Source of the DNA: Arcobacter sp.
GTDB taxonomy: Bacteria; Campylobacterota; Campylobacteria; Campylobacterales; Sulfurimonadaceae
NCBI GenBank assembly: GCA_002733885.1
Contig: NVXJ01000001.1
Span: 109,298 to 171,301 of the forward strand
Direction of reading: 5' to 3'
Length of the DNA stretch: 62,004 nt
The position numbers and the translations under genes are program-made. Each line of letters opens with the position of its first letter. Within the stretch, counting starts at the first letter, position 1. The notes below the pieces were generated by a model that had not been told where the DNA came from, made no database searches, and saw only the letters and a program-made list of their open reading frames with translations. Below, piece by piece: positions 3,773 to 38,571 of this stretch.

Positions 3773-3773
3773 T

Positions 3774-16741: not shown

Positions 16742-16752
16742 TAGTATTCCCC

Positions 16753-18081: not shown

Positions 18082-18087
18082 TTTAAC

Positions 18088-19389: not shown

Positions 19390-19403
19390 TTTTTTATTAA
19401 ACC

Positions 19404-20093: not shown

Positions 20094-20239
20094 GCAATAC
20101 CTTCTTCCATAAAAAGTTCTACTAAGTTTTCAGCATTACTCATTTTTTCAACTGAATCAAATTTTAAAAATGCTTTATAACTCTTACTTACCCCTAAATA
20201 AAGACTCTTATTCTGTTTTACTTTATTATTTTTGTGCAT
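20090..20239 (-). CDS. unlisted small ORF (49 aa), translationally coupled to wbqC
   Basis: ATG at 20239 is preceded by AGGGGGA. It encodes MHKNNKVKQNKSLYLGVSKSYKAFLKFDSVEKMSNAENLVELFMEEGIA. Its TGA overlaps the wbqC ATG (ATGA). It fills an otherwise unexplained 184-nt gap in a gap-free operon. It is below the 60-aa cut-off of the ORF track. Confidence 0.45.
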   Translation of the reverse strand: MHKNNKVKQNKSLYLGVSKSYKAFLKFDSVEKMSNAENLVELFMEEGIA

Positions 20240-20277
20240 ACTATTTCATTCCCCCTATATTTAACTTCTATTAAAGA

Positions 20278-20793
20278 CTAGTTATTAAGTTTACTTAAGA
20301 CAATTACATCATGGTGTTTTCCCTTTTTAAAAACTGCATTTCGTAATCTACCTTCTTTATCAAATCCACATTTTTCATGAGTACGTAAAGAGGCTGTATT
20401 ATAAGAAAGAACATGTGAATATATTCGATGTAAATTACGTTCTTCAAAACCATACTTTAAGATTTTAGAAATTGCCTCAGTTCCTATACCTTTTCCATAA
20501 AGGGATGCTTCCCCAAGTAAAATATGCAATTGAGCACTTCTATTTATATTATCAATATCTGTTAAATAAATATTACCTACATATTGATCTGTTGCTTGTA
20601 AACATATTGCTAGAACAATTTCTGTCCCTTTAGCATTGTAAATTTTATCTTCTACCCACTTTTTTTCATATGCTTCTGATACAAAGTAATGGAGTCCTCC
20701 AAGTTGAACCGATATACTTTCATCTTTGCGCCACTTAATGGAAACCTTGTAATCATCTAGTTCTAATGCTCTAAAATAAATCAGATCTTGCAT
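20278..20793 (-). CDS. GNAT-family N-acetyltransferase (RimJ/RimL-like)
   Basis: 171 aa. ...LHILLGEASLYGKGIGTEAISKILKYGFEERNLHRIYSHVLSYNTASLRTHEKCGF is the acetyl-CoA binding core. Confidence 0.85.
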   Translation of the reverse strand: MQDLIYFRALELDDYKVSIKWRKDESISVQLGGLHYFVSEAYEKKWVEDKIYNAKGTEIVLAICLQATDQYVGNIYLTDIDNINRSAQLHILLGEASLYGKGIGTEAISKILKYGFEERNLHRIYSHVLSYNTASLRTHEKCGFDKEGRLRNAVFKKGKHHDVIVLSKLNN

Positions 20794-21771
20794 TTATATC
20801 TCCTCTTTTAAAAAAACAGTAACAACATCAATAATTCTTTGCATATCTTCTATCTCATAACGTTGATCTATTGGTATTGGCAACAAGTATTTTACAAAAC
20901 TTGCTTCTACTTGTTCTTGAGTTTCTACATAATCTAAAACTTCATTCCAGTATGTTGGTACATATATCTTTTGCTCAATTAAAAAAGACCTTAATCCCTC
21001 TTTTTCAATCCATAAAGGGTATACCATTGGTCCAATAATTTGACCTTCTCTTATCTTTAGCTTATTAATAGAAATAAAAGTGGCATGCAAATATAAAAAG
21101 TTTCGTTCACGTCTAAGTTTAATCTTTTCATAATCTATTGATGAAAGAATTTTTTGAGTTAAAACAGACATTTTCTTTAAAGGTCTATGACACATCTCTT
21201 TATTATGATTTGCATACAGTGAATAGGCTTGAGAAGCTTCATTTTCTGTTCTTGTAAGTAAGGCGGCACAACGGTCATAGGACATCTCAAATTCCAACTC
21301 TTCATCTAACTTCGTACTTGAGTATACATACCCTCCATCTGCTACACCAAAGAACTTGCGAGGAGAGTAGCAGTTATTTGTATTTTTAATTGGCTGCTTA
21401 AAAAAGGCTTGAGTATTGTCTATAATAAGCCTCTCACCATACATCTTTGCCAATTTATTTATATACTCATTTTTAATACCAAAATAATTAATATAAATAA
21501 GTTTTTCATTATCCTTTATATCTTGAGGAAGTAAGTTTATAATTTCTAAATTTTCATTAATTGCATAAAACACATACTCAATACCAAGTGTAATTACTGG
21601 TTCAATTACAGTACCGCAAGTAAAATATGGTACATAAACTTTTTGTGTACTAGATGCTTTTAAGACATACGCAATAGCATTTCGACCACTGTTTACCTTT
21701 GCTGTGGCATCTGTATACAACTCATTTCTTACATCAAATTCAAATTCAAAGTAACCGCCAATTTCTCTCAT
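20794..21771 (-). CDS. short DegT/DnrJ/EryC1-like PLP-dependent enzyme
   Basis: NSGRNAIAYVL...VYVPYFTCGTVIEPV, LIIDNTQAF and YSPRKFFGVADGG (candidate PLP Lys) follow the DegT fold order. Shorter (325 aa) and more divergent than the neighbouring transaminase. Confidence 0.55.
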   Translation of the reverse strand: MREIGGYFEFEFDVRNELYTDATAKVNSGRNAIAYVLKASSTQKVYVPYFTCGTVIEPVITLGIEYVFYAINENLEIINLLPQDIKDNEKLIYINYFGIKNEYINKLAKMYGERLIIDNTQAFFKQPIKNTNNCYSPRKFFGVADGGYVYSSTKLDEELEFEMSYDRCAALLTRTENEASQAYSLYANHNKEMCHRPLKKMSVLTQKILSSIDYEKIKLRRERNFLYLHATFISINKLKIREGQIIGPMVYPLWIEKEGLRSFLIEQKIYVPTYWNEVLDYVETQEQVEASFVKYLLPIPIDQRYEIEDMQRIIDVVTVFLKEEI

Positions 21772-21783
21772 CTATAAAATACC

Positions 21784-22887
21784 TTACTTTTTCTCAAAAT
21801 AGATATCATGTTCTTTATGATAATCACAAATAATATTAATAATTCTATCTTGAACTTCTAGTTCAAGCCCAGGGTAAATAGGAAGTGCCAGTATTCTCTC
21901 AGACACATCTCTTGAGACAGGCATTACATCTGAATCTTGAGTATAAGGAAGCGTATCTAAAGAAGGATAAAAATATCTTCTTGGATTGATTCCATTGTCT
22001 TTTAAAATCTTCACTACCCTTAAAAGTTGTTGCTCATTTTTAAAAAGAATGGGGAAATAAGCATGATTATTTGTACAATTTTCATTCTTTTTTTGAATTT
22101 CTACGATCCCAGTTAAAGCATTGAAATAACGTTCATATAATTCTTTACGTTGCTCTTGAATGAGTTCTATCTCATCCAATACGCATAGCCCCATAGCCGC
22201 TTCAAATTCATTCATTTTAGCATTAGTACCTAAGGCTTTAACTGTTTCAGGCCCATCTATCCCAAAGTTGATAAGGTATCTGGCATCTTGAACAAGTCTA
22301 TCATCATTTATAATTAAAGCCCCACCTTCAATAGAATGAAATATTTTCGTTGCATGGAAACTAAGAGTCGAAACATCTCCATAATTTAAAAGGCTTTCAT
22401 TCTTATAATTTTCTCCAAAGGCGTGTGCTGCATCATAAATTACTTTTAAGTTATGCTTATCTGCAATTTTTTCAATACTTTCAACCTCACAAGCATTACC
22501 AAATACATGAACAGGAACTATTGCACTCGTCTTATCTGTGATTCTTTCTTCTAATTTTTTTGGGTCTAAGTTTAAACTTTCTTTATCTATATCACAAAAT
22601 ATAGGTTTAAGTCCATTTGACACTAAAGAACTTGTCGTTGCTACAAAAGAAAAAGGTGTTGTTATAACCTCACCTTTTAATTTTAATAATCTATATGCAA
22701 TTTCTAAAGCAACCGTACCATTTGAAACAAGAACAATATTTTTTACCCCTAAAAATTTTGCTAAGCGACTCTCTAGCTCTTGAACCAAAGGACCATTATT
22801 AGTCACCCAACCACTTTCGTAGATCTTGTCTATATACGAAATATACTTCTCTTTATCTGGCATATATGTTTTTGTAACATTAATCAT
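21784..22887 (-). CDS. DegT/DnrJ/EryC1/StrS-family sugar aminotransferase (probable dTDP-4-keto-6-deoxyhexose 4-aminotransferase)
   Basis: GWVTNNGPLVQELE, VSNGTVALE, IYDAAHAFG and SFHATKIFHSIEGGALI (PLP Lys). The start is taken at ATG 22887 (MINVTKTY), which overlaps the rmlB stop. The track's 22911 start lies deep inside rmlB. Confidence 0.9.
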   Translation of the reverse strand: MINVTKTYMPDKEKYISYIDKIYESGWVTNNGPLVQELESRLAKFLGVKNIVLVSNGTVALEIAYRLLKLKGEVITTPFSFVATTSSLVSNGLKPIFCDIDKESLNLDPKKLEERITDKTSAIVPVHVFGNACEVESIEKIADKHNLKVIYDAAHAFGENYKNESLLNYGDVSTLSFHATKIFHSIEGGALIINDDRLVQDARYLINFGIDGPETVKALGTNAKMNEFEAAMGLCVLDEIELIQEQRKELYERYFNALTGIVEIQKKNENCTNNHAYFPILFKNEQQLLRVVKILKDNGINPRRYFYPSLDTLPYTQDSDVMPVSRDVSERILALPIYPGLELEVQDRIINIICDYHKEHDIYFEKK

Positions 22888-23893
22888 TATATTTCTCCAA
22901 ATACCAATCAATTGTTTTCACAATCCCCGTACTAAAATCTTCATCGGCTTTCCAGCCTAGTTCTTTTTCTAACTTAGTAGCATCAATAGCGTAACGTCTA
23001 TCATGTCCTGCTCTATCTTCGACAAAGCTAATTAAATCCTTATACGATTTATCTGTGGGAACCTTCTCGTCCAAGATACTACAAATTGTATCTACAATCT
23101 GTAAGTTCGTTCTTTCATTATGTCCACCAATGTTATAAATATTAGCTTCTCTTCCCGTATGATAAACTAAATCAATTCCCTTACAATGATCAAATACATA
23201 TAACCAATCTCTAATATTTTTTCCATCACCATAAATAGGAATATTATCTCCTGATAAACATTTGCGAATAATCGTTGGAATAAGTTTTTCATCATGCTGC
23301 TTAGGACCATAATTGTTTGAGCAGTTAGTTATGACTGTATTCATTCCGTAAGTTTCTTGATAAGAACGCACTATCATGTCACTACTGGCTTTTGAAGCCG
23401 CGTAAGGTGAATTTGGGGCATAAGGTGTTTCTTCCGTAAAAAGATCTGTCTCATTTAAAGTTCCATATACTTCATCTGTCGAAATATGGTGAAAACGGCA
23501 TTTTTCATATCCTGCTTTAAAGCTAAATGGCTTTTTCATCCATTTCTTGTAAGCAACATCTAGCAGTGTAAAAGTACCATTAACATTTGTTTCAATAAAA
23601 ACACCAGGATTTTTAATTGAATTGTCTACATGTGATTCCGCAGCAAAATGAATAATGCCTTTAATATCATACTCATCAAAGATAAACTCAACTAAGTCAC
23701 GATTACAGATATCACCTTTGATAAACTTGTAATTTGAATCTTTTTCAATATCATTTAAATTCATTAAATCACCTGCGTAGGTTAGAAGATCTAAGTTAAT
23801 AATTTGGTATTCTGGGTATTTATCTAAAAAGTAAGGGACAAAATTTGAACCTATAAATCCAGCACAACCTGTCACTAAGATTGATTTAGACAT
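22880..23893 (-). CDS. rfbB: dTDP-glucose 4,6-dehydratase
   Basis: [37 protein letters not shown] 23893 (MSKSILV) has AAGGAAG 6 nt upstream. The longer track start lies inside rmlA. Confidence 0.95.
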
Positions 23894-24800
23894 TTTCATC
23901 TTCCTTACAAGGTTGACAGTAATGACCTTCCTCTGCTCTACGTAACAGGTATTGTCCATATTGGTTTTTCTTTAAAGGCTGAGCAAGTTCAATTAATTGT
24001 TCTTTTGTAATATAGTTCATCTCAAAGGCAATTTCTTCTAAACAAGCTACTTTTAAACCCTGACGTTTTTCAATAGTCTGAATAAACTGCCCTGCATCTA
24101 AAAGACTCTCATGCGTTCCTGTATCTAACCAGGCATATCCCCGTCCCATAATTTCAACTTTTAAGTTTTTTTCTTCCAAATAAGCTTGATTAATTGAGGT
24201 TATCTCTAACTCGCCACGGTCAGATGGTTTTACTTTTTTAGCTTTTGAAACTACATCATTAGGATAAAAATACAAGCCGACAACCGCATAATGACTTTTA
24301 GGATTTTCAGGCTTTTCTTCTAAAGAAAGCACTTCCTCTTTGTTATTAAATTCAACCACCCCATAACGTTCTGGATCATTTACATAATAACCAAATACAG
24401 TCGCTTGCTTATTATTTTGTGCATTAAGTACAGACTTATTTAACATCTCCACTAATCCACCTCCATAAAAGACATTATCCCCTAACACAAGGCAAACATC
24501 ATCATCTCCTATAAAGTCCTCTCCAAGAATAAAAGCTTGGGCTAAACCATCAGGCGAAGGCTGAATAACATAGTCAAAATACATACCAAGGTCTGAACCA
24601 TCTCCAAGAAGTTCTTTAAAACGTGGTAGGTCATGTGGCGTTGAAATAATTAATATTTCTTTTATCCCCGCAAGCATAAGAACAGAAAGTGGATAATAAA
24701 TCATTGGCTTATCATAAAGTGGTGCTAACTGCTTACTAATACCTTTAGTAATTGGATATAGACGTGTTCCACTTCCTCCAGCTAAAATAATTCCCTTCAT
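23886..24800 (-). CDS. rfbA: glucose-1-phosphate thymidylyltransferase
   Basis: [25 protein letters not shown]...GLAQAF...[13 protein letters not shown] is the canonical RmlA. Confidence 0.97.
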
Positions 24801-24813
24801 ACACTTCCTTAAC

Positions 24814-24841
24814 TTAATGTAATTATATTAATGTAATTATA
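24814..24841. repeat. perfect 14-bp tandem direct repeat (ttaatgtaattata x2) in the divergent promoter region
   Basis: 24814-24827 equals 24828-24841. Located 14 nt upstream of the rmlA start, in the 187-nt rmlA/acyltransferase intergenic region. Confidence 0.9.
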
Positions 24842-24944
24842 TTATAATAATTATTAAAATAAGTAAAATATAGTTAAAATTCATTAGTTTGTAATACTTA
24901 TGTTATGAAAGACATTAGTTCAGAGATAATACTTTATTTTTGTG

Positions 24945-24950
24945 TATAAT
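24945..24950 (+). promoter_or_regulatory. candidate -10 box (TATAAT) for the acyltransferase gene
   Basis: tgtgTATAAT lies 38 nt upstream of ATG 24988. A GAGAGAGA RBS precedes the start. Confidence 0.3.
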
Positions 24951-24987
24951 TTTGACTTTTTAAAACATAATAATCAAGAGAGAGAAA

Positions 24988-26016
24988 ATGCAAGAACGAA
25001 TCCAATGGCTAGACTCCTATCGTGGTATATTGATAAGCTCTATCGTTTTTATTCATATTTTAGACTTATTTCCTATTTACAACCCTTTTATGGAAATGTT
25101 TTCAGGTATGCGTATGCCTGCATTTTTCTTTATCTCTGGCTTTTTACTGAGTGATAGGTATACAGCTTTCTCAAGTTTTTTCAAACATAGATTCAGGCAA
25201 CTCATTGTTCCATATTTTATATTTTTTATTTTAACACTTCTCTTTTGGAATTTTTTTGATCTCTTTGTGAACAATACTATTGTTCATAGTTTGCAACTAC
25301 TCAAAGGTATGATTTACGGAGTGCCCTCTAGTGGGTTAATGCTAACTGCTGCACCTTTATGGTTTGTTGTTACTCTCTTTTTATCTGAAATGTACTATAT
25401 TACTCTAAAAATATATATAAAAAGTGATTTGCAAAAACTATTTATATTAATTCTCTTTAGTTTAGTCACCTTGTACCTAAGTATACATCTTAAATATAGA
25501 TTACCGTGGAATGCTGATATTGCTTTTTTAGGTGCTGTTTTTTATGGCCTAGGAAATATCACCAAAAAGTACAATCTTTTACATTACCTTCATATCGAGC
25601 ATACTTTGCTAAAGCTAATTGTGATTATATTTTCTTTGGGGATCAGCATTTGGTTAAGTTTACATAGTACTAACGATTATGCTAGAAATATCTTTAATAA
25701 TATGTTTTTCACACTTCTAAGTGCAGGCTTTGGAATTATTTCACTTGTTTTATTCTCTTCATTTAAGCCTATAAAAGAAAGCCAAGCACTTCAATACCTT
25801 GGTATTAATACCTATGTTATTTTAGCCTTCCACAATATACCTATTAAACTTTTTTCAATAATTTTATTAAAACTAACAGGTTCAAATACTGTATTTGTAA
25901 ATAGTAGCATTGCTCAGCTATTTACTGGGCCTTTGTTCTTAGTTATTCTTCTTTTTTCTATGATGCCACTTATCTATATCATCAATAAAAAAGCACCCAT
26001 GATATTAAATAAATAG
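24988..26016 (+). CDS. membrane acyltransferase family 3 (O-acetyl/acyltransferase, OafA/WecH-like, no SGNH extension)
   Basis: N-terminus RIQWLDSYRGILISSIVFIH (conserved R and H) and about 10 TM helices. It is the only plus-strand gene inside the locus. Confidence 0.85.
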   Translation: MQERIQWLDSYRGILISSIVFIHILDLFPIYNPFMEMFSGMRMPAFFFISGFLLSDRYTAFSSFFKHRFRQLIVPYFIFFILTLLFWNFFDLFVNNTIVHSLQLLKGMIYGVPSSGLMLTAAPLWFVVTLFLSEMYYITLKIYIKSDLQKLFILILFSLVTLYLSIHLKYRLPWNADIAFLGAVFYGLGNITKKYNLLHYLHIEHTLLKLIVIIFSLGISIWLSLHSTNDYARNIFNNMFFTLLSAGFGIISLVLFSSFKPIKESQALQYLGINTYVILAFHNIPIKLFSIILLKLTGSNTVFVNSSIAQLFTGPLFLVILLFSMMPLIYIINKKAPMILNK

Positions 26017-26035
26017 TAAATTCACTTAAGGGTAC

Positions 26036-29000
26036 TTATTTTTCGTCAAAACTACTATAATAGGAATCAATAGTTTTCTTAAGACTCTGAACATTCTCAC
26101 TTAACAATACCGTTAAATGTTCACCATCTATATAATTAACACTTACATTCTTCTCTATAAGCTGACTCCAACCATACTTAGTCATAACACTATTTCTTTG
26201 CATATTTTCATTTTTATCTTTAATAAATAATAATGATATATTAAGATCTTCTTTCATTGGTTTAAACCTATAATAATCATAAGCGAGTACTGCATATGGT
26301 ACTATTTGTGTCTTAGAATGATGTTCTAACTTATGCTTTGCAAAACTAAAAAACTGCATTCTACTCATTTTATTAAATATCTTTTTTATTTCAAACTTTG
26401 ATAAAGATTTTGTCATCTGAAATAATTGTTTATAGTTTTTCTTTTGAGGAACAGATGTATTAAGCATTATAATTGATTCAATCTCATCTTTTAAAATTTT
26501 TGCCATTTCATAAGCAACTAATGACCCCATGCAATAACCAATTAAGCGATATGGCCCATGCCGTTGTATTGATTTAATTGCCTTTACATTTGCTTTTGCA
26601 ATTTCAACAATCGCATTCACTGCTGAACTTGAGGATGTAGGATACAACATATCTAATCCATAAAAAGGTTGTGTTTCACCCATAACTTCGGAAAGCGCTT
26701 TATATATCACCGTGCTCCCACCTGCTCCTGGTAGTCCAAAAATTGCTCTTTTATTACCCTTAATTTGAATAGGAACTAATATTTCTTCGGAAGTTTTTTC
26801 TGCTTTAATCCATATTCCTAATTTTTCTACAGTTGGTGCCTGAAAAAGTACTGATGCTACTAACTTAATATTAAGAAACTTATTTACTTTTTCAATTAAC
26901 TGTACTGATAATAAAGAATGCCCACCTAGCTCAAAAAAATCATCATAAATACCAATTTCTTTTATTTTAAAAACTTCTGAAAAAATAGAACTAAGCTTTA
27001 CTTCAATATCATTTCGTGGTTCCATATATTCTCTTGACAATTCTCTTATAACTTCTATTTTGGCTAAAGCTTTTTTATCCACTTTTCCGTTAGAGGTTAA
27101 TGGCATTTTTTTCAAGAATACGATTGCACTTGGAAGCATATATTCTGGTAAATTCAAAGATAAATTTATTTTTATCCTAGCTGTATCTATTTTTTGATTA
27201 TTTGCAGTGATGACATATCCAACTAAAGCTTTTTCACCATGATTATCTTCATTAGCTAGTACAACCGCTTCCTTAATTTCATTTAATTGTATAAGTTGTT
27301 GTTCAATTTCACCTAACTCAATTCTAAAACCGCGTATCTTTACTTGGTCATCTATTCTACCAAGATATTCTATGTCCCCATCTTCTGTATAACGAACTAA
27401 ATCACCTGCCTTATACATTCTAGTACTTGTTTCAAATGGATTAGGTATGAACTTTTCATCTGTTAAGACAACTTGATTTAAATATCCTCGTGCTAATCCT
27501 GGCCCTGATATATAAAGTTCTCCTGCTACTCCCTGTGGCACTAGCTGGTTGTCTTTATTTAAAATATAACAAGATAAGTCTTTTAAAGTTTTTCCAATTA
27601 AAGTTTTTTCATTCTTTACATCTTCTTTGTATAAAGCCTTGTAGGTAGTATGTACTGTCGTTTCCGTAATCCCATACATATTAACGAGTAAAGGATGAGT
27701 GTCATTATATTTTTCATACCAACTAGACAAGACACTAAACTCTAACTTTTCACCACCAAAAATTACTTTTCGAAGACTATTTATTTTTTCTTTATGTTGT
27801 TTATCAACTTCTATAATTTGCTTAAATGCAGAAGGTGTCTGATTTAAAATAGTAATTTTTTCTCTACCTAAAAGTTTATAAAATTCTTCAGGTGAACGAG
27901 AAATCTCATAAGGAACAATCACAAGTTTTCCACCATGTAATAAGGCACCCCAAATTTCCCAAACTGCGAAATCAAAGGCAAACGAATGGAAAAAAGTCCA
28001 CACATCATTTTCATCAAACTTAAAGTCATCTTGAGTTGATTGAAAAAGCCTCTGAATATTTGTATGCTCAAGCATAACACCTTTTGGTTTTCCAGTTGTT
28101 CCCGAAGTATAAATCACATAGGCTAAGTTTTTAGACTTCGTTTTGGTTTTAGGATTGTTTGTCTGGTAAGTACTTAGGTCATTTGTATCTAAACAGACTA
28201 TCTTACTCTTAGTCTCAGGAATAAGACTAAGAAGAGTTTCGTGTGTTAATAAAATTTCTGCTTTTGAATCTTCTAAGGTATATTCAATTCTATCTCTAGG
28301 ATAAGCTGGATCAATCGGTAAATAGGCTCCCCCCGCTTTTAAAATAGCTAACAACCCAACAATCATATCTATTGAACGCTCAACACATATGGCAATAAGT
28401 TTATCTGCACAGGCACCTTCCCTAATCAAATACTGTGCTAACTGATTAGACCGTTCATTTAAGCACTTATACGTTAATGACTCTTTCTCAAAAACAACAG
28501 CAATATTATCAGGTGTTTTAGTTACTTGACTTTCAAAAAGCTCCTGTATCGTTTTAGATGCATCATATTTTGTCTCTTTTTTATTCAGTTCAAATAAAAG
28601 ATTATTTTTTTGAACCTGCGATAAAATTTCATATTGTGATATTTCCTTCTGACTATCTAAATTCACTTCGTCTAAAAGCATTTTAAAATTGTCTATCATT
28701 GAGGTAATGTATACAGGAGAAAACAAATCAGTCGCATATTTCAAAGAACCTAAAAGGATATTGTCTTTTTTCGTTATAGATAGGGTGATATCAAACTTAG
28801 ATGTCATTTTTTTTATTTTATCTCTAGAAATATCATTATCATTTAGAATAAACATAGCTTGAACTAAGGGCGCACGTGAGGTGTCTTTTACAATATTTAA
28901 AGCATCTGCAATTTCTTCAAATACCATGTCATTAAAATCATATGAATCTATAATTTTATTTTTTACTTGATTAAGCAATTTTTCAAAGCTAGAAGTATCG

Positions 29001-29368
29001 CTATAATCCTGTCTTAAGATCATAGTGTTTAAACAAGGGACTATTACATCTTTTATATTTACCTTATTTTGTATACAATCTGAAGTAGCAATAAGAATAT
29101 TATCTTGTTCAGAATACCGATGAAGTAATATCGAAAAACAAGTAAGCAAGTTCATCAACAATGTTGTGTCAAACTTCTTACTCAGTAAAGCGAGGTTAGC
29201 TGTCACTTCTTCATTTATTATAAAATCAATTGTTTGCATTTTTCCACTAGCTTTTAAAGGCCTCATGTAAGTTGTAGATAATTCTAGGACTTGACTTCCC
29301 TCTAATTGCTTTGTCCAATATAATAGTTTATCATTCTTTGAAGGTACACTTTTAGCTTTCATTAACAT
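26036..29368 (-). CDS. single-module nonribosomal peptide synthetase: C-domain remnant, adenylation, thiolation and thioesterase domains
   Basis: A-domain cores: [95 protein letters not shown]. Carrier: [29 protein letters not shown], DGEH. An AGGAGA RBS precedes ATG 29368. Confidence 0.93.
   Translation of the reverse strand: [1110 protein letters not shown]
26054..26776 (-). other. NRPS type-I thioesterase domain with Cys at the nucleophile position
   Basis: G944-Y-C946-M-G948: the tgc codon at 26531-26533 on the minus strand replaces the usual GxSxG serine. The GEH1084 His motif lies near the C-terminus (26117-26119). Confidence 0.8.
26804..27022 (-). other. NRPS peptidyl-carrier (thiolation) domain
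   Basis: GGHS motif with Ser818 encoded at 26915-26917 (tct on the minus strand). Confidence 0.85.
27044..28561 (-). other. NRPS adenylation domain, hand-derived specificity code DFWNIGMVHK (L-Thr type)
   Basis: See the motif list above. Code residues are D466, F467, W470, N509, I536, G538, M564, V572, H573, K762. Confidence 0.8.
28634..29368 (-). other. NRPS domain: C-terminal half of a condensation domain only (no HHxxxDG)
   Basis: aa 1 to about 245 begin at the ...[10 protein letters not shown]...L.....RP region that normally follows the catalytic His motif. No HHxxxDG appears anywhere in the protein, and only 21 nt separate the ORF from kdsA. Confidence 0.7.
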
Positions 29369-29389
29369 TATTCTCCTAGAGCTAAATTA

Positions 29390-30166
29390 TTATTTAATAG
29401 ACTCTAAAATTGCCTCAAAATCTTTAAGATAAACCATATTTGGTCCATCACTTAAGGCCTCTTCTGGATTTTCATGTACTTCAAAAAAGAAACCGTTTAC
29501 ACCAACAGTATTGGCAAGTTTTGCCATATAAGGAGCATACTCACGGTTTCCACCACTTGTACTTCCTCCCCCTGGTCTTTGTGTTGAATGTGTCACATCC
29601 ATCACGATAGGGTATCCAAACTCTTTCATATCAATGATCTGTCTAAAGTCAACTACTAAGTTTCCTAGACCAAACATAGAGCCACGTTCTGTTAACATGA
29701 TTTTATCATTTCCACTTTCTTTAACTTTTTGAGCAGGAAAGAACATGTCTTTACCATCAAGAAACTGTGCTTTTTTAATGTTAATGATTCTGTCTGTTTT
29801 AGCTGCCGCAACAAGTAAGTCTGTTTGTCTACATAAAAAAGCGGGGATTTGAAGTATATCAACTACTTCACCTACCATAGCTGCTTGAGAAGGCTCATGA
29901 ATGTCTGTGGTTAGTGGAAGTTCAAACTCTGTTTTAACCTTTTCTAAGATTCTTAAACCTTCTTCAATTCCTGGTCCACGGTATGAATTAACAGATGTTC
30001 TATTTGCCTTATCAAATGAAGCCTTGAAAATATAAGTAAAACCACAATCTTCTGTCATCTTTTTAATCTTTTCAGCAAGATTCATTATCATTGACTCACT
30101 TTCGATAACACATGGTCCTGATAAAATAAATTTTTTCTCTTGTAAACTTTTATATAATTCTTCCAT
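29390..30166 (-). CDS. kdsA: 3-deoxy-8-phosphooctulonate (KDO-8-P) synthase
   Basis: FILSGPCVIESE...FKASFDKANRTS..YRGPG...DVTHS.QRPGG is the canonical KdsA. Confidence 0.93.
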   Translation of the reverse strand: MEELYKSLQEKKFILSGPCVIESESMIMNLAEKIKKMTEDCGFTYIFKASFDKANRTSVNSYRGPGIEEGLRILEKVKTEFELPLTTDIHEPSQAAMVGEVVDILQIPAFLCRQTDLLVAAAKTDRIINIKKAQFLDGKDMFFPAQKVKESGNDKIMLTERGSMFGLGNLVVDFRQIIDMKEFGYPIVMDVTHSTQRPGGGSTSGGNREYAPYMAKLANTVGVNGFFFEVHENPEEALSDGPNMVYLKDFEAILESIK

Positions 30167-30702
30167 TACATTTCCCCTTTAATTGCTTTTTGTATGATTT
30201 TTTCTAGCTTACCTTGTTCTTCAAGTATCATGTCACAAAGATCTCTCACTGCACCATCTCCACCCTTTGAAGCTAAAACAATATCAACATTTTCTTTTAT
30301 ATAATACCTCGCGTCAGCAGGACAAGCACTTAGCCCTACCCTACTTAAAACAGATAAATCGATAATATCATCGCCGATATAAGCTATCTCTTCATCAACT
30401 AAGTCAAACTGTTTTTTAAAGTTTTCATATTTTAAGAGTTTATTATTTACACCATGTTCATGAAAGTCTAACTTTAATTCTTCACAGCGTTTTTCAACCA
30501 CATCTGAGGCTCTGCCTGTGATAGCACCAACCACAAAACCGTTAAAACGTAAATGTGAAATAATTTGTCCGTCTTTTACATTAAAACGTTTATACTTTTG
30601 AAAATTGTTGTCATAAATAATCCCGCCATCTGTTAATACACCATCAACATCAAAGATAATACCTTTGATTTTTTTCGCTTGATTTTTTAAATTTGCATGC
30701 AT
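30166..30702 (-). CDS. kdsC: KDO-8-phosphate phosphatase (HAD-IIIA)
   Basis: IKGIIFDVDGVLTDGGIIY, ITGR, YIGDDIIDL. Confidence 0.9.
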   Translation of the reverse strand: MHANLKNQAKKIKGIIFDVDGVLTDGGIIYDNNFQKYKRFNVKDGQIISHLRFNGFVVGAITGRASDVVEKRCEELKLDFHEHGVNNKLLKYENFKKQFDLVDEEIAYIGDDIIDLSVLSRVGLSACPADARYYIKENVDIVLASKGGDGAVRDLCDMILEEQGKLEKIIQKAIKGEM

Positions 30703-30791
30703 TATTTACTCAAATCATAAATTTGTACAACACCAAGCAACTTAGAGTCTTGACTTACTAAAAGTGAATTTACTTTTTTATCTTCCATCAT
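30702..30791 (-). pseudogene. kdsD: displaced 3' end of kdsD (29 codons, out of frame with the gene body)
   Basis: MMEDKKVNSLLVSQDSKLLGVVQIYDLSK reads like the end of a CBS domain. Its TAA overlaps the kdsC ATG (TAATG). One extra A in the A5 run (T5 at 30791-30795 on the plus strand) would fuse it in frame to the kdsD body. Confidence 0.7.
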
Positions 30792-31648
30792 TTTTCGGCC
30801 TCAATTAACTTAGCCTTAGGTGATATAAACAAGGGAGAACTTGACATAAGGTCACTCACCTTAAGTGAAAAGAAGGCATCTTCGTTTTCTTCCATTGCTC
30901 GTCTTATATCACCATCTGCAATAACACCTTTAATTTCATCCTTATCTTGAACAACCGCTAAACCAAGTTTACCTGCAGTAATAACATGCACAACTTCTTT
31001 AATCGAAGTATTTTCAGCACATACAGGAAGCGCTTTATCTTGCATAATATTTTCAACCCTCATTAAAAGTCTTCTACCCAAACTACCGCCAGGGTGAAAT
31101 AGTGCAAAATTTTCTTCTTGAAAGTCTTTTATTTTCATTAAACATACAGCAAGAACATCTCCCATAACTAAACACGCCGTTGTTGAAGATGTTGGTGCTA
31201 ATTGTAAGGGGCAGGCTTCTTTTTCAACATGTGTATTTAAATGATATTTTGAGTTAAGTGCTAAACTTGATTTTGGATTTCCCGTCATTGAGACAATAAT
31301 ATTACCTTGAGATTGTAAAAAAGGGACTACCTTTAAAACTTCATCAGTTTCCCCTGAATTAGATATTAATAAAACAATATCTTCTTTTTCTATCATTCCA
31401 AGGTCACCATGATAAGCCTCCCCTGGATGTAAAAAGAAGCTAGGTGTTCCGGTACTTGCCAAGGTAGCCGCTATCTTTTTACCAATTAACCCTGACTTTC
31501 CCATACCACAGATAATAAACTTACCCTTAGACCCTGAAATATCATCTATACACTTTTCAAAATCATCTGTTAGGTATTTTTGCATATTAGCAATTTCTTT
31601 TGCTTCTACCGCTATAACTTCTTTAGCTATTTCTAAACTTTTACTCAT
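30788..31648 (-). CDS. kdsD: arabinose-5-phosphate isomerase (KdsD/KpsF family), apparently truncated by a 1-nt frameshift in the second CBS domain
   Basis: SIS domain GKFIICGMGKSGLIGKKIAATLASTGTPSFFLHP..A.HGDLG, then CBS repeats. The start is taken at ATG 31648 (MSKSLEI), 1 nt after the manC stop. The ORF stops at 30788, right after an A5 run. Confidence 0.85.
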   Translation of the reverse strand: MSKSLEIAKEVIAVEAKEIANMQKYLTDDFEKCIDDISGSKGKFIICGMGKSGLIGKKIAATLASTGTPSFFLHPGEAYHGDLGMIEKEDIVLLISNSGETDEVLKVVPFLQSQGNIIVSMTGNPKSSLALNSKYHLNTHVEKEACPLQLAPTSSTTACLVMGDVLAVCLMKIKDFQEENFALFHPGGSLGRRLLMRVENIMQDKALPVCAENTSIKEVVHVITAGKLGLAVVQDKDEIKGVIADGDIRRAMEENEDAFFSLKVSDLMSSSPLFISPKAKLIEAEK

Positions 31649-31649
31649 T

Positions 31650-33011
31650 TTAGACTCTTTTAAAATCATCTGATATTCTGACAATATCATCTTCACCAAG
31701 ATACTCACCTACCTGAGCTTCAATCATAACCAAAGGAATTTTTCCAACATTTTCTAAGCGGTGAATTTCTCCCATTGGGATATATGTTGACTCATTAGCA
31801 CGAACTAAAAATTCTTCTTCCCCACGCGTTACTGTCGCCGTTCCACTTACAACTATCCAATGTTCTGAACGATGAAAGTGTTTTTGTAAAGAAAGTCTTT
31901 TACCTGGATTTACTACAATGCGTTTAATCTTATACTTTTCACATTCGTCAAGTATGGTGTAAGTACCCCAAGGTCTATGTGCAGTTGTATGAATCTGAGG
32001 TAAATGTGAACCTTTCTCTTTTAACTGTTTTACTACTTCTTTGACCTTTTGCGAGCTGCCTTTTTTAGAAATAAGTAAGGCATCAACCGTATCAACAATA
32101 ATTAAATCTTCTACATCAATAGTTGCAATATTTTTAGTTGTTAAAATAAGGTTATTTTTCGAGTTTATACTGATATGCTTATCTTCTTGCGTATTTCCAT
32201 TTTTATCTTGAGGAAGTTCCTCATACAAGGCATCAAAGCTGCCTAAGTCACTCCAATCAATATCACTAGCAATAACCTTAACAATATCACTCTTTTCCAT
32301 TACCGCGTAGTCAATACTATCTTCTGAGATATTTTCCATATCTTCATGCGCAATTCTTATTAAATCGTCTTTATTCGCATTAGTATAGGCTGTTAAACAA
32401 GTATCATATATCTTTGGAGAATATTTTTTAAGTTCATTTAAAAAAACACCCGCTTTAAAACAAAACATTCCACTGTTCCAATAATAATTTCCTGCTTCAA
32501 GATATTGTGTAGCTGTTTGTAAGTCAGGTTTTTCTTTAAAAGACTTAACATCATTCCCCTCAGCCTCTATATAACCATATCCCGTTTCTGCAAAAAGGGG
32601 TTTAATACCAAAGGTAACAAGCTTATTATTTTCAGCTTCTTCTTTTGCCTTAAGTACTACTTCTTTATACGCTACTTCATTTTTAATTAAATGATCAGAT
32701 GGACTAACTAAAACAATTTCTTCTTTATCTAGACCAAGGCAAGCAAGAGCAATAGCAGGTGCAGTATTACGTCCAATAGGTTCTAATAAAAAAGTTGTTT
32801 TTTCTTTAGATTCCAGTTGATCCATCGCTAAAAAGTATTGTTCTGCATTAGAAACAATATATTGGTTTTCACAAAAGTGTGCGTTTCGTTTTACTGTTAA
32901 TTGAAAAAGGGACTTATCTTTAAAAAGCTTAACAAACTGCTTTGGCATTAAGGTTCTACTAATGGGCCAAAGGCGTGTACCATTACCCCCACATAAAATT
33001 AAGTTTGTCAT
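31650..33011 (-). CDS. manC: bifunctional mannose-1-phosphate guanylyltransferase / mannose-6-phosphate isomerase (type II PMI-GMP)
   Basis: LILCGGNGTRLWPISR at the N-terminus and a C-terminal cupin, RLSLQKHFHRSEHWIVVSGTA...IPMGEIHRLEN. The start is taken at MTNLIL (33011). Confidence 0.92.
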   Translation of the reverse strand: MTNLILCGGNGTRLWPISRTLMPKQFVKLFKDKSLFQLTVKRNAHFCENQYIVSNAEQYFLAMDQLESKEKTTFLLEPIGRNTAPAIALACLGLDKEEIVLVSPSDHLIKNEVAYKEVVLKAKEEAENNKLVTFGIKPLFAETGYGYIEAEGNDVKSFKEKPDLQTATQYLEAGNYYWNSGMFCFKAGVFLNELKKYSPKIYDTCLTAYTNANKDDLIRIAHEDMENISEDSIDYAVMEKSDIVKVIASDIDWSDLGSFDALYEELPQDKNGNTQEDKHISINSKNNLILTTKNIATIDVEDLIIVDTVDALLISKKGSSQKVKEVVKQLKEKGSHLPQIHTTAHRPWGTYTILDECEKYKIKRIVVNPGKRLSLQKHFHRSEHWIVVSGTATVTRGEEEFLVRANESTYIPMGEIHRLENVGKIPLVMIEAQVGEYLGEDDIVRISDDFKRV

Positions 33012-33128
33012 TTTACTTCCCCTACTTTTCATAAAATAGTTTTAAATATTTTGATGTAGCATATTAACATCCATCAATTTTTATACTCGCCATCTTATTA
33101 GGAGTAGCCTTTATATTTCAAAAATTAT

Positions 33129-34391
33129 TTACAATTTACCATCACTATATTCAAGGACTGACTTAATGTCATAAATTATTGTATCGTTACCATTTTTCAG
33201 TGCATCCATATCAATAGTTTTAAATTTATCATGTGAAACAGCAAGGACAACTGCATCATACTTCCCAGCTTTCATAGTAGCTTCGTCTATTAAGCCAAAA
33301 CCATATTCTCTTTGTACATCATCACTGTTAGCCCATGCATCATAAACAGACACATTACATTCGAAATCTTTTAGTTCATTAATTACATCAATTACACGTG
33401 AATTTCTAATATCTGGACAATTTTCTTTAAAGGTGATTCCAAGTACCAGAACATTCGATTTTTCAACTCTATGACCTTTTTTAATCATAAGCTTAATCAC
33501 TTGATTAGCCACATAAATACCCATGTTGTCATTAAGTCTACGACCTGCTAGAATAATTTCAGGGTTATAACCAATTTCTTGTGCCTTATGTGTAAGGTAA
33601 TAAGGGTCAACACCAATACAGTGTCCGCCAACAAGACCTGGCTTAAATTTCAAGAAGTTCCATTTTGTACCCGCTGCCTCTAAAACTGCATTTGTATCAA
33701 TACCTAATTTGTTAAAAATAATCGCTAATTCATTTACAAAAGCAATATTAATATCTCTTTGAGAATTTTCAATAACCTTAGCTGCTTCAGCAACTTTAAT
33801 ACTTGGTGCTAAATGTGTTCCTGCAGTAATAATACTTTTATAAAGGTTATCAACTTTTATAGCAATTTCTGGAGTTGAGCCCGCAGTTACTTTTAAAATT
33901 TTTGCAACTGTATGTTCTTTATCACCTGGATTGATACGTTCAGGTGAGTATCCACAAAAGAAATCCACATTAAATTTAAGGCCAGAAAATTTTTCTAAGA
34001 CTGGCACACAATCTTCTTCTGTTGCCCCAGGATAAACAGTTGACTCATAAATAACAATATCACCCTTATTTAGAACCTTCCCTATGCTCTCGCTCGCTTT
34101 AAATAAAGGAGTTAGATCTGGACGCTTATTTTTATCAATAGGCGTAGGTACCGTAACGATAAAGTAGTTACATGACTTTAAATCATCTAATTGATTTGTA
34201 TAAGACATCATAGGAGCATCTTTTAACTGTTCTTCATTCAACTCTAGCGTTCTATCATAACCTGAACGTAATTCATCAATACGCCATTGAGCGATATCAA
34301 AACCAACTGTTTCGTACTGTTTTGCAAATTCTACTGCTAAAGGTAAACCCACATATCCTAAACCAATTACTGCTATTTTAATTTGACTCAT
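33129..34391 (-). CDS. UDP-N-acetyl-hexosamine 6-dehydrogenase (WbpO/TviB/VipA type nucleotide-sugar dehydrogenase)
   Basis: [26 protein letters not shown]...[12 protein letters not shown] and [12 protein letters not shown]. Adjacent to its usual epimerase partner. Confidence 0.85.
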
Positions 34392-35425
34392 TATTTTCCC
34401 TTAATATTTTGAATATACCAATTGATTGCTAGTTTCATACCTTCATCAATTGTTTGAGTTGGCTCATATCCAACAAGTTCTTGCGCCTTAGATATATTTG
34501 CATTAGAATGACGAATATCACCTTCTCTAAAATCTCTGTAAACTGCTTCTTTTTTACTAAAATCTTTAAGGTTATTTCTTAACTCTTTATTAATTAATTC
34601 ATACAATTCATTCAAAGTTGTTTGCCCACCAACAGCAACATTAAATGCTCCACCAAAAGCTTTTTCATTCTTAGTAGTTCCGGCTAACAAGTTCATTTGA
34701 ATAACATTATCTATATAACAAAAATCACGACTCGTTTCACCATCACCATTAATAAACACAGTTTCATCATCTAGTAAAGAACCCACCCACTTTGGAATAA
34801 CCGCTGCATAAGCACCATCTGGGTCTTGACGACGACCAAATACATTAAAATAACGTAAGCCTACACATTCCATTCCATAGGTTCGTGTAAAAACTCCCGC
34901 ATAAAGTTCATTTGTAAACTTCATTACTGCGTAAGGTGAAAGTAAGTTACCTGTGCGTTCTTCAACCTTTGGCAATTCAGCAGAATCTCCATATACAGAA
35001 CTTGAAGAAGCATAGATAAAGCGCTTAATGCCCTCGTTCTTAGCGGCTGTCAACATATTTAAAAAACCCGTTATATTTGACAGATTAGAAGTAATAGGGT
35101 CTGCAATAGAGCGAGGAACAGAGCCTAGAGCGGCTTGATGTAAAACTATATTTACACCATCACATGCTTTTTCACATACACTATAGTCACTAATATCACC
35201 TTCAATAAATTTTAAATTTTTATATTTATTTTCTCCAACACTTTGTTTTATCATGTCAAGGTTTTTTTGGTAGCCTGTAGAAAAATTATCTAAACCTACC
35301 ACATTTTGATTATGTTTAAGTAAAAACTCTGCTAAATTGGATCCTATAAAGCCTGCAATTCCTGTAATTAGCCAAGTTTTCTGTGTCGTTTTAAATTCAT
35401 TTATTAAGTCTGTGAATACACTCAT
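34391..35425 (-). CDS. UDP-HexNAc(A) C4-epimerase (WbpP/TviC/VipB type SDR)
   Basis: [59 protein letters not shown]. Confidence 0.85.
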
Positions 35426-35513
35426 TTCTTTTTATTCCCTAGGTTTTATATATTTATATAATAATTTTTATTATATAATGTTTTATATTAAACTACAGTA
35501 AACAGAATACAAT

Positions 35514-36245: not shown

Positions 36246-36253
36246 AATAAACC

Positions 36254-38560: not shown

Positions 38561-38571
38561 TTCTACAATTC

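What the first reader, a model, noticed from the sequence alone, without database searches (positions are those of the whole stretch)
26525..26539. Thioesterase nucleophile is cysteine (GYCMG) instead of the canonical GxSxG serine
The TE domain otherwise looks standard. It has IFGLPGAGGS near its start, GPYRLIGYCMGSLVAYEMA at the nucleophile elbow and DGEH near the C-terminus. The elbow codon is tgc (Cys946, nt 26531-26533 on the minus strand), read directly from the DNA.

Cys-for-Ser TE domains are rare. The characterised examples I know (the obafluorin and sulfazecin synthetase TEs) perform unusual off-loading: strained-ring formation from beta-hydroxy or beta-amino acyl chains. A thioester acyl-enzyme is also a better donor for weak or unusual acceptors.

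Combined with a predicted beta-hydroxy amino acid substrate (Thr), this points to a non-hydrolytic transfer. The target could be a sugar hydroxyl or amine, or the product could be a Thr-derived beta-lactone.
Basis: partly seen in the sequence, partly recalled or inferred. Interest (0 to 1): 0.65.

Follow-up and report, generated by a model that had tools for sequence, protein, structure and literature searches.

The report
Cysteine thioesterase in sugar-coat NRPS
A one-module, threonine-activating peptide-synthetase gene inside a cell-surface polysaccharide locus of a sulfur-oxidising Campylobacterota bacterium really has cysteine instead of serine at its release domain's active site, which suggests (unproven) that it hands threonine to a sugar rather than hydrolysing it.

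Summary
ORF 26036-29368 (-) encodes a remnant-C/A/T/TE protein of 1110 aa. Cys946 (TGC, 26531-26533) sits exactly at the TE nucleophile elbow. The only orthologue found (58% identical, from a related Sulfurimonadaceae) keeps Cys with a different codon and replaces Ser949 by Ala.

New points:
- The canonical triad Asp after beta6 is Asn970. Asn at this position occurs only in Cys-type TEs (11/54 against 0/152 Ser-type).
- The "DGEH" Asp is not conserved.
- The C domain lacks its catalytic half.
- The A-domain code is DFWNIGMVHK (Thr).

Cys TEs are not rare in sequence space: about a quarter of the nearest relatives have Cys, after A domains of many specificities. This TE groups with AB3403/Pks13/EntF-type TEs, not with ObiF/SulM, so the beta-lactone analogy is weak.

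The gene is the last gene of a Wza/Wzc/Wzx/Wzy polysaccharide operon. It lies next to Kdo genes, dTDP-4-amino-6-deoxyhexose genes and a GNAT.

Best reading, inferred only: a Cys-His-Asn threonyl-transferase that decorates a glycan precursor. N-acetyl-threonyl amino sugars are known. Moderately interesting; a new variant of a known kind.

The parts
26036..29368 (-). NRPS-like gene, 1110 aa: remnant C / A(Thr) / T / TE(Cys). It is the last gene of the wza...kdsA operon.
28595..29332 (-). C-terminal lobe only of a condensation domain (aa 13-258 match Pfam profile positions 193-456). There is no HHxxxDG motif. kdsA ends 22 nt upstream, so nothing is missing from the assembly.
27083..28537 (-). Adenylation domain (aa 278-762) with core motifs intact. 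The specificity code is DFWNIGMVHK (Thr).
26816..26998 (-). Carrier (T) domain, aa 791-851. The phosphopantetheine Ser818 lies in GGHSL (nt 26915-26917).
26066..26743 (-). Thioesterase domain (aa 876-1101), alpha/beta-hydrolase fold.
26531..26533 (-). Cys946 codon TGC: the nucleophile at the elbow after beta5.
26459..26461 (-). Asn970 codon AAT: position I after beta6, where the canonical triad Asp sits. It is conserved as Asn in the orthologue and in P0123.
26216..26218 (-). Asp1051 codon GAT: two residues after beta7 (position II). It is Glu in the orthologue and Asp in P0123, making it an alternative triad acid.
26117..26119 (-). His1084 codon CAT (GEH): invariant in the 22-sequence family alignment.
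29390..31708 (-). kdsA (29390-30166), kdsC-like HAD phosphatase (30166-30702) and kpsF/kdsD (30788-31708), directly upstream in the same direction.
24988..26016 (+). Acyl_transf_3 membrane acyltransferase with 8 hydrophobic segments. It is convergent with the NRPS gene, with a 19-nt gap.
18088..24800 (-). The next operon. It holds rmlA, rmlB (dTDP-glucose 4,6-dehydratase), a DegT-type aminotransferase for dTDP-4-keto-6-deoxyglucose, an unknown 325-aa protein, a GNAT N-acetyltransferase, WbqC and an ATP-grasp ligase.
3020..39366 (-). The whole Wzx/Wzy-type polysaccharide locus. It includes Wza, Wzc, CpsB, uronic-acid dehydrogenases, ManC, a pyruvyl transferase, GT2/GT4 glycosyltransferases, the Wzx flippase, Wzy and a PaaK-like ligase.

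Best explanation
The gene encodes a stand-alone NRPS-derived tailoring enzyme of a surface-polysaccharide pathway.

Proposed steps:
1. The A domain adenylates L-threonine and loads it on Ser818-phosphopantetheine of the T domain. This is inferred from intact motifs and the Thr code.
2. The threonyl group moves by an energy-neutral transthioesterification onto Cys946 of the TE.
3. The TE active site is Cys946-His1084, with Asn970 in the place of the usual Asp (a papain-like Cys-His-Asn arrangement). Asp1051 after beta7 is the alternative third residue.
4. The module has no catalytic C domain, and hydrolysing Thr back to Thr would be futile. The threonyl-S-enzyme is therefore resolved by an external nucleophile from the glycan pathway.
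5. The most likely acceptor is the 4-amino group of the dTDP-4-amino-4,6-dideoxyhexose made by the adjacent RmlA/RmlB/aminotransferase. The neighbouring GNAT would then N-acetylate it, giving an N-(N-acetyl-threonyl) amino sugar of a kind already known in O-antigens.

Shown here: the sequence features, the fold, conservation of Cys/Asn/His, the Thr code and the genomic context. Inferred: every catalytic step and the identity of the acceptor.
For: Nucleophile:
- Cys946 sits at the elbow by alignment to solved TEs and by the model.
- The orthologue keeps Cys, Asn and His but not Ser949 or Asp1081.

Cys/Asn subtype:
- Asn at position I occurs only with a Cys nucleophile: 11/54 against 0/152, Fisher p about 2e-7, not corrected for phylogeny.
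- In large NRPSs (P0147, P0202, P0214; by position also P0136, P0158) the Cys/Asn TE is an internal domain followed by further modules. Hydrolysis there would abort synthesis, which argues for a transfer or holding role.

The module:
- The Thr code is identical to that of PvdD.
- The C domain lacks the HHxxxDG lobe.
- The A, T and TE motifs are intact.
- The gene's GC (30.5%) is close to the window's (32.6%).

Context:
- The gene is embedded co-directionally in a Wza/Wzc/Wzx/Wzy locus, with rmlA, rmlB, a 4-aminotransferase and a GNAT nearby.
- The product type exists: N-acetyl-L-threonyl-FucN in Pseudoalteromonas agarivorans and 4-(N-acetyl-L-allothreonyl)amino-4,6-dideoxyglucose in V. cholerae O43 (PMC10609480).

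Mechanistic precedents:
- The Pks13 TE, the second-best fold match (TM 0.70-0.72), releases its product onto trehalose.
- CouN7 moves an acyl group off a T domain onto a free-standing substrate; by my own recollection, not checked here, that acceptor is a sugar hydroxyl.
- LgnA and SyrC carry threonyl as an acyl-enzyme (PMC8748450).
Against: - There is no biochemical test, and the acceptor is not identified.
- The NRPS gene ends the Kdo-gene operon rather than lying inside the dTDP-sugar operon.
- The locus already holds two other candidate amide-forming enzymes, an ATP-grasp ligase and a PaaK-like ligase, which could do the aminoacylation.
- Only one orthologue exists, on a 1.1-kb contig where the gene is followed by murI, so conserved neighbourhood could not be tested.
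- No phosphopantetheinyl transferase was found among the ORFs of the window that were scanned.
- About half of Cys TEs keep Asp, and terminal Cys TEs may simply cyclise or hydrolyse.
Confidence: 0.45

Rival explanations
1. ObiF-like release. The threonyl (or N-acyl-threonyl) thioester on Cys946 is attacked by its own beta-hydroxyl, and the product leaves as a threonine beta-lactone.
For: - There is a Cys nucleophile and a beta-hydroxy amino acid substrate.
- Position I is not Asp, as in ObiF (Gly1173).
- An acid lies 33 residues before His (Asp1051), comparable to the 30 residues in ObiF1 (Asp1254/His1284) and in SulM.
Against: - ObiF and SulM are absent from the phmmer hits (E<=1), the best 60 profile hits and the top 50 fold matches. 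AB3403, Pks13, EntF and even RifR are found.
- ObiF/SulM group with type II TEs, and this TE does not.
- No catalytic C domain is present to N-acylate Thr. A free-amine beta-lactone would be unstable (own knowledge).
- The wider Cys/Asn subtype has no conserved acid after beta7.
- Acidic residues after beta7 also occur in Ser/Asp TEs.
- Cys TEs follow many non-beta-hydroxy A domains.
Confidence: 0.08
2. Epimerising or hydrolytic release. The thioester on Cys946 makes the alpha-proton acidic, so L-Thr becomes D-allo-Thr (or is N-acetylated on the carrier) and is released as a free acid. The ATP-grasp or PaaK-like ligase then joins it to a uronic acid or an amino sugar.
For: - The best sequence match in the PDB (7crn) is a bifunctional epimerising/cyclising TE, and NocB TE is also matched.
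- NocTE has a dual epimerase/hydrolase function (PMC11298585).
- D-allothreonine and L-allothreonine occur on bacterial glycans.
- The locus has two UDP-sugar dehydrogenases, an ATP-grasp ligase and a PaaK-like ligase.
Against: - The similarity to 7crn is family-level only (18% identity in the fold alignment).
- No residue known to mediate epimerisation was tested.
- It is an expensive route to a free amino acid.
- Internal Cys/Asn TEs in large NRPSs argue against a hydrolytic role.
Confidence: 0.15
3. Dlt-like route. The threonyl group is passed from the T domain or TE to the adjacent membrane Acyl_transf_3 protein, which esterifies hydroxyl groups of the exported polymer.
For: - The AT3 gene abuts the NRPS gene with a 19-nt gap and has 8 hydrophobic segments.
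- D-alanylation of teichoic acids by DltA/DltC/DltB/DltD is an established precedent for an A domain and carrier feeding a membrane acyltransferase (own knowledge). The A domain also matches the DltA models.
Against: - AT3 is on the opposite strand, in a separate transcription unit.
- In the orthologue contig the gene downstream of the TE is murI, not AT3.
- AT3 enzymes normally use acyl-CoA donors (own knowledge).
Confidence: 0.1
4. Relic or unrelated small-molecule synthetase. A 5'-truncated termination module that is either inactive or makes a small threonine-derived metabolite unconnected with the polysaccharide. Cys would then simply be inherited from a Cys-type ancestor.
For: - The C domain is truncated.
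- No PPTase was found among the scanned ORFs of the window.
- The protein is extremely rare: one orthologue in searches of billions of proteins.
- Thr-code modules ending in Cys TEs exist in ordinary NRPSs (P0014, P0007).
Against: - The 3.3-kb ORF is intact with all A, T and TE core motifs.
- The orthologue is 58% identical, against 80% for MurI, yet it keeps the catalytic residues and motif blocks while the lid varies.
- Its GC matches the host's.
- It has a tight operon position 22 nt after kdsA.
Confidence: 0.12

Closest known systems
ObiF1 and SulM thioesterase domains (obafluorin beta-lactone, sulfazecin beta-lactam)
   Same: All have a Cys nucleophile in a GxCxG elbow, lack Asp at the canonical post-beta6 position, and act on a small substrate ending in a beta-substituted amino acid.
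   Different: Those TEs place Asp after beta7 and cluster with type II TEs. They receive an N-acylated substrate from a working C domain, and SulM has a Gln-Cys-Asn motif. Here the elbow is Tyr-Cys-Met and the C domain is a remnant. The TE is not detectably related to them beyond the fold.
AB3403 (A. baumannii C-A-T-TE, PDB 4zxh)
   Same: It is the best fold match and among the top three sequence and profile matches. It is a single module ending in a Cys TE, and its function is also unknown.
   Different: AB3403 keeps Asp at position I and has a complete C domain. Own recollection, not checked: it prefers glycine and sits in a small-molecule cluster, not a glycan locus.
Pks13 thioesterase domain of Mycobacterium tuberculosis
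   Same: It is a type I TE fold match (TM 0.70-0.72). It off-loads its acyl-enzyme onto a sugar (trehalose) instead of water.
   Different: Pks13 has a Ser nucleophile. By my own recollection its triad Asp is at position I. Its substrate is a very long lipid, and it is part of a PKS.
Carrier-dependent alpha/beta-hydrolase transferases: SyrC, CmaE, LgnA, CouN7
   Same: They take an aminoacyl or acyl group (threonyl for SyrC and LgnA) from a T domain as a covalent enzyme intermediate. They pass it to another acceptor. For CouN7 that acceptor is a free-standing substrate (PMC8748450), by my own recollection a sugar hydroxyl.
   Different: They are free-standing proteins in NRPS or aminocoumarin clusters, and LgnA uses Ser.
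DltABCD D-alanylation of teichoic acids; lincosamide synthetase
   Same: In both, an NRPS-type A domain plus carrier activates one amino acid. It ends up on a cell-wall polymer or is amide-linked to an amino sugar (the DltA model match is; PMC4351081 is).
   Different: There is no TE domain in either. Transfer is done by MBOAT/DltD or by LmbD-type proteins.
Glycans carrying N-acetyl-threonyl amino sugars (V. cholerae O43, P. agarivorans KMM 232)
   Same: This is the product class predicted here: threonine linked through its carboxyl group to the amine of a 6-deoxy-amino-hexose and then N-acetylated.
   Different: Those are chemical structures only. To my knowledge (not searched specifically) the enzymes that attach the amino acid are not established. 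No structure is known for this organism.

Membership tests
Type I NRPS/PKS thioesterase domain (PF00975, alpha/beta hydrolase) | Significant match to the family model, located directly after a carrier domain | tested here: met
   PF00975 scores 77.2 bits against a cut-off of 26.4 at aa 876-1101, after PP-binding at 791-851. The fold search returns TE domains only.
Type I NRPS/PKS thioesterase domain (PF00975, alpha/beta hydrolase) | Nucleophile elbow Gx(S/C)xG after beta5 and a catalytic His after beta8 | tested here: met
   GYCMG has Cys946 right after strand 80-85 (TE numbering). His1084 is invariant in alignment A2.
Type I NRPS/PKS thioesterase domain (PF00975, alpha/beta hydrolase) | Triad Asp on the loop after beta6 (position I) | tested here: not met
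   The residue is Asn970, and it is Asn in the orthologue and in P0123 too. Among Ser-type relatives, 147 of 152 have Asp there.
ObiF/SulM-type beta-lactone/beta-lactam-forming TE | Cysteine nucleophile | tested here: met
ObiF/SulM-type beta-lactone/beta-lactam-forming TE | Triad Asp moved to the loop after beta7 (position II) | tested here: inconclusive
   Asp1051 lies two residues after beta7 and is Glu or Asp in the two nearest relatives. However, acids occur there in Ser/Asp TEs as well, and the wider Cys/Asn subtype lacks one. No coordinates were available to measure distances.
ObiF/SulM-type beta-lactone/beta-lactam-forming TE | Closest relatives are ObiF/SulM and type II TEs | tested here: not met
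   ObiF and SulM are absent from the PDB sequence, profile and fold hits. The best matches are 7crn, AB3403, FAS, Pks13, NocB and EntF.
ObiF/SulM-type beta-lactone/beta-lactam-forming TE | Substrate N-acylated by a functional upstream C domain (SulM also has the Gln-Cys-Asn motif) | tested here: not met
   Only profile positions 193-456 of the C domain are present, with no HHxxxDG motif. The elbow is Tyr-Cys-Met.
AB3403-like single-module Cys-TE NRPS | Complete C-A-T-TE module with a Cys nucleophile and Asp at position I | tested here: not met
   Cys is present, but position I is Asn and the C domain is a half-domain.
Thr-activating NRPS adenylation domain | Ten-residue specificity code DFWNIGMVHK and intact core motifs | tested here: met
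   The code, read by motif anchors, is identical to that of both modules of proteins named PvdD. The motifs are listed. That the code means Thr is established knowledge. Substrate activation itself was not tested.
Wzx/Wzy-dependent polysaccharide locus | Wza, Wzc, Wzx flippase, Wzy polymerase, glycosyltransferases and nucleotide-sugar genes in one block | tested here: met
Carrier-dependent aminoacyl/acyl transferases (SyrC, CmaE, CouN7, LgnA) | Covalent acyl-enzyme resolved by a non-water acceptor | not testable with these tools
   This needs enzymology. There is only indirect support, from the internal position of Cys/Asn TEs in large NRPSs.

The most novel reading that the evidence does not exclude
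This is the first example of an NRPS-derived module, with a papain-like Cys-His-Asn triad on a thioesterase scaffold, acting as an aminoacyl-transferase for a bacterial surface glycan. It would be the missing type of enzyme that puts carboxyl-linked amino acids such as N-acetyl-threonyl on amino sugars of O-antigens and capsules. The Cys/Asn TE subtype, including the internal copies in large NRPSs, would then be a general transfer domain rather than a release domain.
Probability: 0.3. Interest if true: 0.75.

Novelty: new variant of a known kind. Interest (0 to 1): 0.5.

Why it matters
Many bacterial O-antigens and capsules carry amino acids on their amino sugars. As far as I know, the enzymes that attach them are largely unassigned. 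A compact A-T-TE(Cys) enzyme in a glycan operon gives a directly testable candidate. It would extend NRPS logic into cell-surface polysaccharide tailoring.

Separately, the survey shows that Cys thioesterases are a sizeable and barely studied class. It defines a Cys/Asn subtype: Asn replaces the triad Asp only when the nucleophile is Cys. This subtype also occurs as an internal domain of large synthetases. That bears on how TE domains are annotated and engineered.

Tried and rejected
- **Ser949 as the true nucleophile: rejected.** It is Ala in the orthologue and Gly in most of the family.
- **Asp1081 of DGEH as the triad acid: rejected.** It is Gln in the orthologue.
- **My first tally of position I was wrong.** Searches were mis-registered by three residues for many relatives and overstated the loss of Asp in Cys TEs. 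I corrected this with a local MAFFT alignment. About half of Cys TEs keep Asp. Asn is the Cys-specific state.
- **Searches for further orthologues found only the L004 fragment and distant TEs.** I tried an exhaustive HMMER search of the TE, word-index searches of the TE and of the half-C region, and scans of genome and metagenome contigs.
- **The two assemblies add no independent evidence.** L001 and L002 are 100% identical to the window.
- **Context of the nearest Cys relative could not be read.** P0123 lies on a 4-kb contig that holds only that gene.
- **The 325-aa protein stays unknown.** It has no Pfam, NCBIfam or PDB match. Single-sequence AlphaFold failed (pLDDT 32), and there is no similarity to the adjacent DegT.
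- **WbqC literature search:** nothing informative.
- **Promoter/terminator scan around the gene:** not above background in this AT-rich DNA.
- **The 49-aa ORF between the GNAT and WbqC is not a carrier protein**.
- **Model coordinates are not returned by the tool,** so His-Asn and His-Asp distances could not be measured.
Full report
**Observation.**
The window holds an ORF at 26036..29368 on the minus strand that encodes 1110 aa. GYCMG is aa 944-948, which is nt 26525-26539.

Pfam gives these domains:
- Condensation, aa 13-258, matching only profile positions 193-456
- AMP-binding, aa 278-630, plus AMP-binding_C, aa 687-762
- PP-binding, aa 791-851
- Thioesterase, aa 876-1101

There is no HHxxxDG motif anywhere in the N-terminal region. 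kdsA ends 22 nt upstream. The module therefore really starts with only the C-terminal lobe of a C domain.

**Is Cys946 the nucleophile?**
Several lines agree that it is.
- phmmer against the PDB aligns GYCMGS with GWSLGS of the TE 7crn. Its S->A mutant 7dxo reads GWALGS. The same stretch aligns with GWCFGG of AB3403.
- An AlphaFold model built on a 22-sequence alignment is confident (pLDDT 86.3, pTM 0.85). It puts Cys946 immediately after strand beta5.
- The only orthologue found is on a 1156-bp contig (L004, JAPOGU010395141.1) and is 58% identical. It reads GPYRLVGYCMGALIAYE, with Cys encoded by TGT rather than TGC, and Ser949 replaced by Ala.
- The MurI fragment on that contig is 80.5% identical to the window's MurI. 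The orthologue therefore comes from a related but distinct organism.
- In the family the position of Ser949 is normally Gly.

The JGI and Logan contigs that carry the protein are 100% identical in DNA to the window. They exclude an assembler artefact but add no independent evidence.

**The rest of the active site is not standard.**
In TE numbering (protein residue minus 860) the model has these elements:
- beta6 at 103-109, followed by Asn110, which is Asn970
- beta7 at 183-189, followed by Lys and then Asp191, which is Asp1051
- beta8 at 215-220, followed by His224, which is His1084

Asn970 occupies position I, where NRPS TEs have the triad Asp. It is Asn in the orthologue and in the nearest full-length Cys relative, P0123. 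The Asp of DGEH is Gln in the orthologue, so it is not catalytic. His1084 is invariant in the alignment.

My first tally of position I across relatives was partly mis-registered, so I redid it with a local alignment of 217 TE segments.

| Nucleophile | Residue at position I | n |
|---|---|---|
| Ser | Asp 147, Glu 3, Gly 2 | 152 |
| Cys | Asp 30, Asn 11, Glu 9, Gly 3, Ser 1 | 54 |

Asn occurs only with Cys (Fisher p about 2e-7; the sequences are related, so this is indicative only). Across the wider Cys/Asn subtype no acid is conserved just after beta7, and acids at that place also occur in Ser/Asp TEs. I therefore favour a Cys946-His1084-Asn970 arrangement. Asp1051 remains an unresolved alternative, because the tool does not return model coordinates.

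**How rare is a Cys TE?**
Among solved structures only ObiF1, SulM and the uncharacterised AB3403 have Cys (PMC11298585). In sequence space Cys is common. Of the 150 best 50%-cluster representatives from an exhaustive search, 148 could be scored at the elbow, and 38 of those carry Cys. Cys TEs follow A domains whose codes differ widely; by established code assignments (own knowledge) these are Gly, Val, Ile, Ala, Ser, Asn and Thr. Cys is therefore not tied to beta-hydroxy residues.

In several large NRPSs the Cys/Asn TE is an internal domain after the first C-A-T module, with more modules and a second TE downstream. Pfam confirms this for P0147, P0202 and P0214. Position indicates the same for P0136 and P0158. 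An internal hydrolase would abort synthesis, so this subtype probably holds or transfers intermediates.

**Relation to ObiF/SulM.**
The literature defines those TEs by three things: a Cys nucleophile, Asp relocated after beta7, and grouping with type II TEs. ObiF1 has Gly at position I.

The window's TE shares the Cys and the non-acidic position I. Otherwise it groups with type I TEs:
- phmmer, a profile of the family and Foldseek all return 7crn, AB3403, FAS, Pks13, NocB, EntF and Vlm2.
- RifR appears at E = 3e-6.
- ObiF and SulM do not appear at all.

The substrate also cannot be N-acylated by the module itself. The beta-lactone reading is therefore kept only as a minor rival.

**Substrate.**
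The ten specificity residues, read by motif anchors, are DFWNIGMVHK. They are identical to both modules of proteins annotated PvdD and to 125 A domains in the retrieved set. That this code means L-Thr is established knowledge. The A3, A5, A7, A8 and A10 motifs and the GGHSL carrier motif are intact.

**Context.**
LeuRS in the window is 91-95% identical to Sulfurimonadaceae MAGs. The window GC is 32.6% and the gene's is 30.5%.

The gene is the last of a long co-directional block: wza, wzc, cpsB, an epimerase, two UDP-sugar dehydrogenases, manC, kpsF/kdsD, a kdsC-like gene and kdsA. A membrane Acyl_transf_3 gene converges on it.

The next operon encodes RmlA, RmlB, a DegT-type aminotransferase for dTDP-4-keto-6-deoxyglucose, an unknown 325-aa protein, a GNAT, WbqC and an ATP-grasp ligase. 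After those come a pyruvyl transferase, glycosyltransferases, Wzx, Wzy and a PaaK-like ligase. No phosphopantetheinyl transferase was found among the ORFs of the window that were scanned.

**Mechanism proposed.**
With no catalytic C domain, hydrolysis of Thr-S-enzyme would be a futile cycle. The most economical reading is that the TE acts as a threonyl-transferase to a glycan-pathway nucleophile.

The best candidate acceptor is the amine of the dTDP-4-amino-4,6-dideoxyhexose made next door, followed by N-acetylation by the GNAT. Such products exist. Examples are 4-(N-acetyl-L-allothreonyl)amino-4,6-dideoxyglucose in V. cholerae O43 and N-acetyl-L-threonyl-FucN in P. agarivorans (PMC10609480).

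Precedents for the chemistry:
- The Pks13 TE releases its product onto trehalose (PMC9210659), and it is the second-best fold match.
- CouN7 moves an acyl group from a carrier to a free-standing substrate, by my own recollection a sugar hydroxyl.
- SyrC and LgnA carry threonyl as an acyl-enzyme (PMC8748450).
- Lincosamide synthetase joins an amino acid to an amino sugar with NRPS parts (PMC4351081).

All catalytic steps and the acceptor are inferred.

**Rivals.**
- Epimerising or hydrolytic release of D-allo-Thr, or of N-acetyl-Thr, for the ATP-grasp or PaaK-like ligases. The nearest solved relatives, 7crn and NocB, are epimerising TEs.
- A Dlt-like hand-over to the adjacent AT3 protein.
- ObiF-like beta-lactone formation.
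- A relic or unrelated module.

The weakest point of the main model is the lack of comparative support. Despite five search strategies, only one short orthologue contig exists. On it the gene is followed by murI, not by AT3 or rmlA.

**Verdict.**
A Cys TE as such is known. The Cys/Asn subtype, the truncated single-module architecture and the placement in a Wzx/Wzy polysaccharide operon of a Campylobacterota bacterium make it a new variant of a known kind. Interest is moderate.

Noticed in passing
P0147, P0202, P0214 (also P0136, P0158, P0142): Large multi-module NRPSs carry a complete internal TE domain with Cys at the elbow and Asn at position I, right after the first C-A-T module. A second Cys TE, with Asp or Glu at position I, sits at the C-terminus. 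As far as I know, internal Cys/Asn TEs have not been described.
   Followed up: partly
window 3774-5129 (-): This 451-aa protein has no Pfam hit, but it matches phenylacetate-CoA ligase (PaaK) structures (E = 1.5e-18). It is a second adenylate-forming enzyme in the polysaccharide locus, possibly CapK-like.
   Followed up: partly
window 20794-21771 (-): This 325-aa protein lies between the sugar aminotransferase and the GNAT. It has no Pfam, NCBIfam or PDB match, and single-sequence AlphaFold failed (pLDDT 32). It may be part of the amino-sugar tailoring cassette.
   Followed up: partly
window 29390-31708 (-): kpsF/kdsD, a kdsC-like phosphatase and kdsA sit inside the polysaccharide operon, directly upstream of the NRPS gene. 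No kdsB (CMP-Kdo synthetase) was seen among the scanned ORFs of the window.
   Followed up: no
L008:7454-10807 (+): In a high-GC NRPS cluster from a metagenome, a 1117-aa protein has a similar layout: a remnant C (profile positions 391-454 only), then A, T and a half-length TE with Cys and Asn. It is flanked by ordinary C-A-T and C-A-T-TE(Cys) proteins and an ABC transporter.
   Followed up: partly
window 11951-13312 (-): This 453-aa soluble protein lies between the Wzx flippase and a GT4 glycosyltransferase and has no family match.
   Followed up: no
L004:267-276: The orthologue contig has a run of 10 N inside the TE gene, just upstream of the elbow. This shifts the frame, so the public gene call splits the TE into two ORFs. 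The elbow itself is read cleanly.
   Followed up: yes
window 22880-23959 and 23886-24800 (-): The mechanical rmlB ORF (359 aa, ATG) overlaps the end of rmlA by 74 nt. The public gene call uses a later start (337 aa), which is probably the real one.
   Followed up: no
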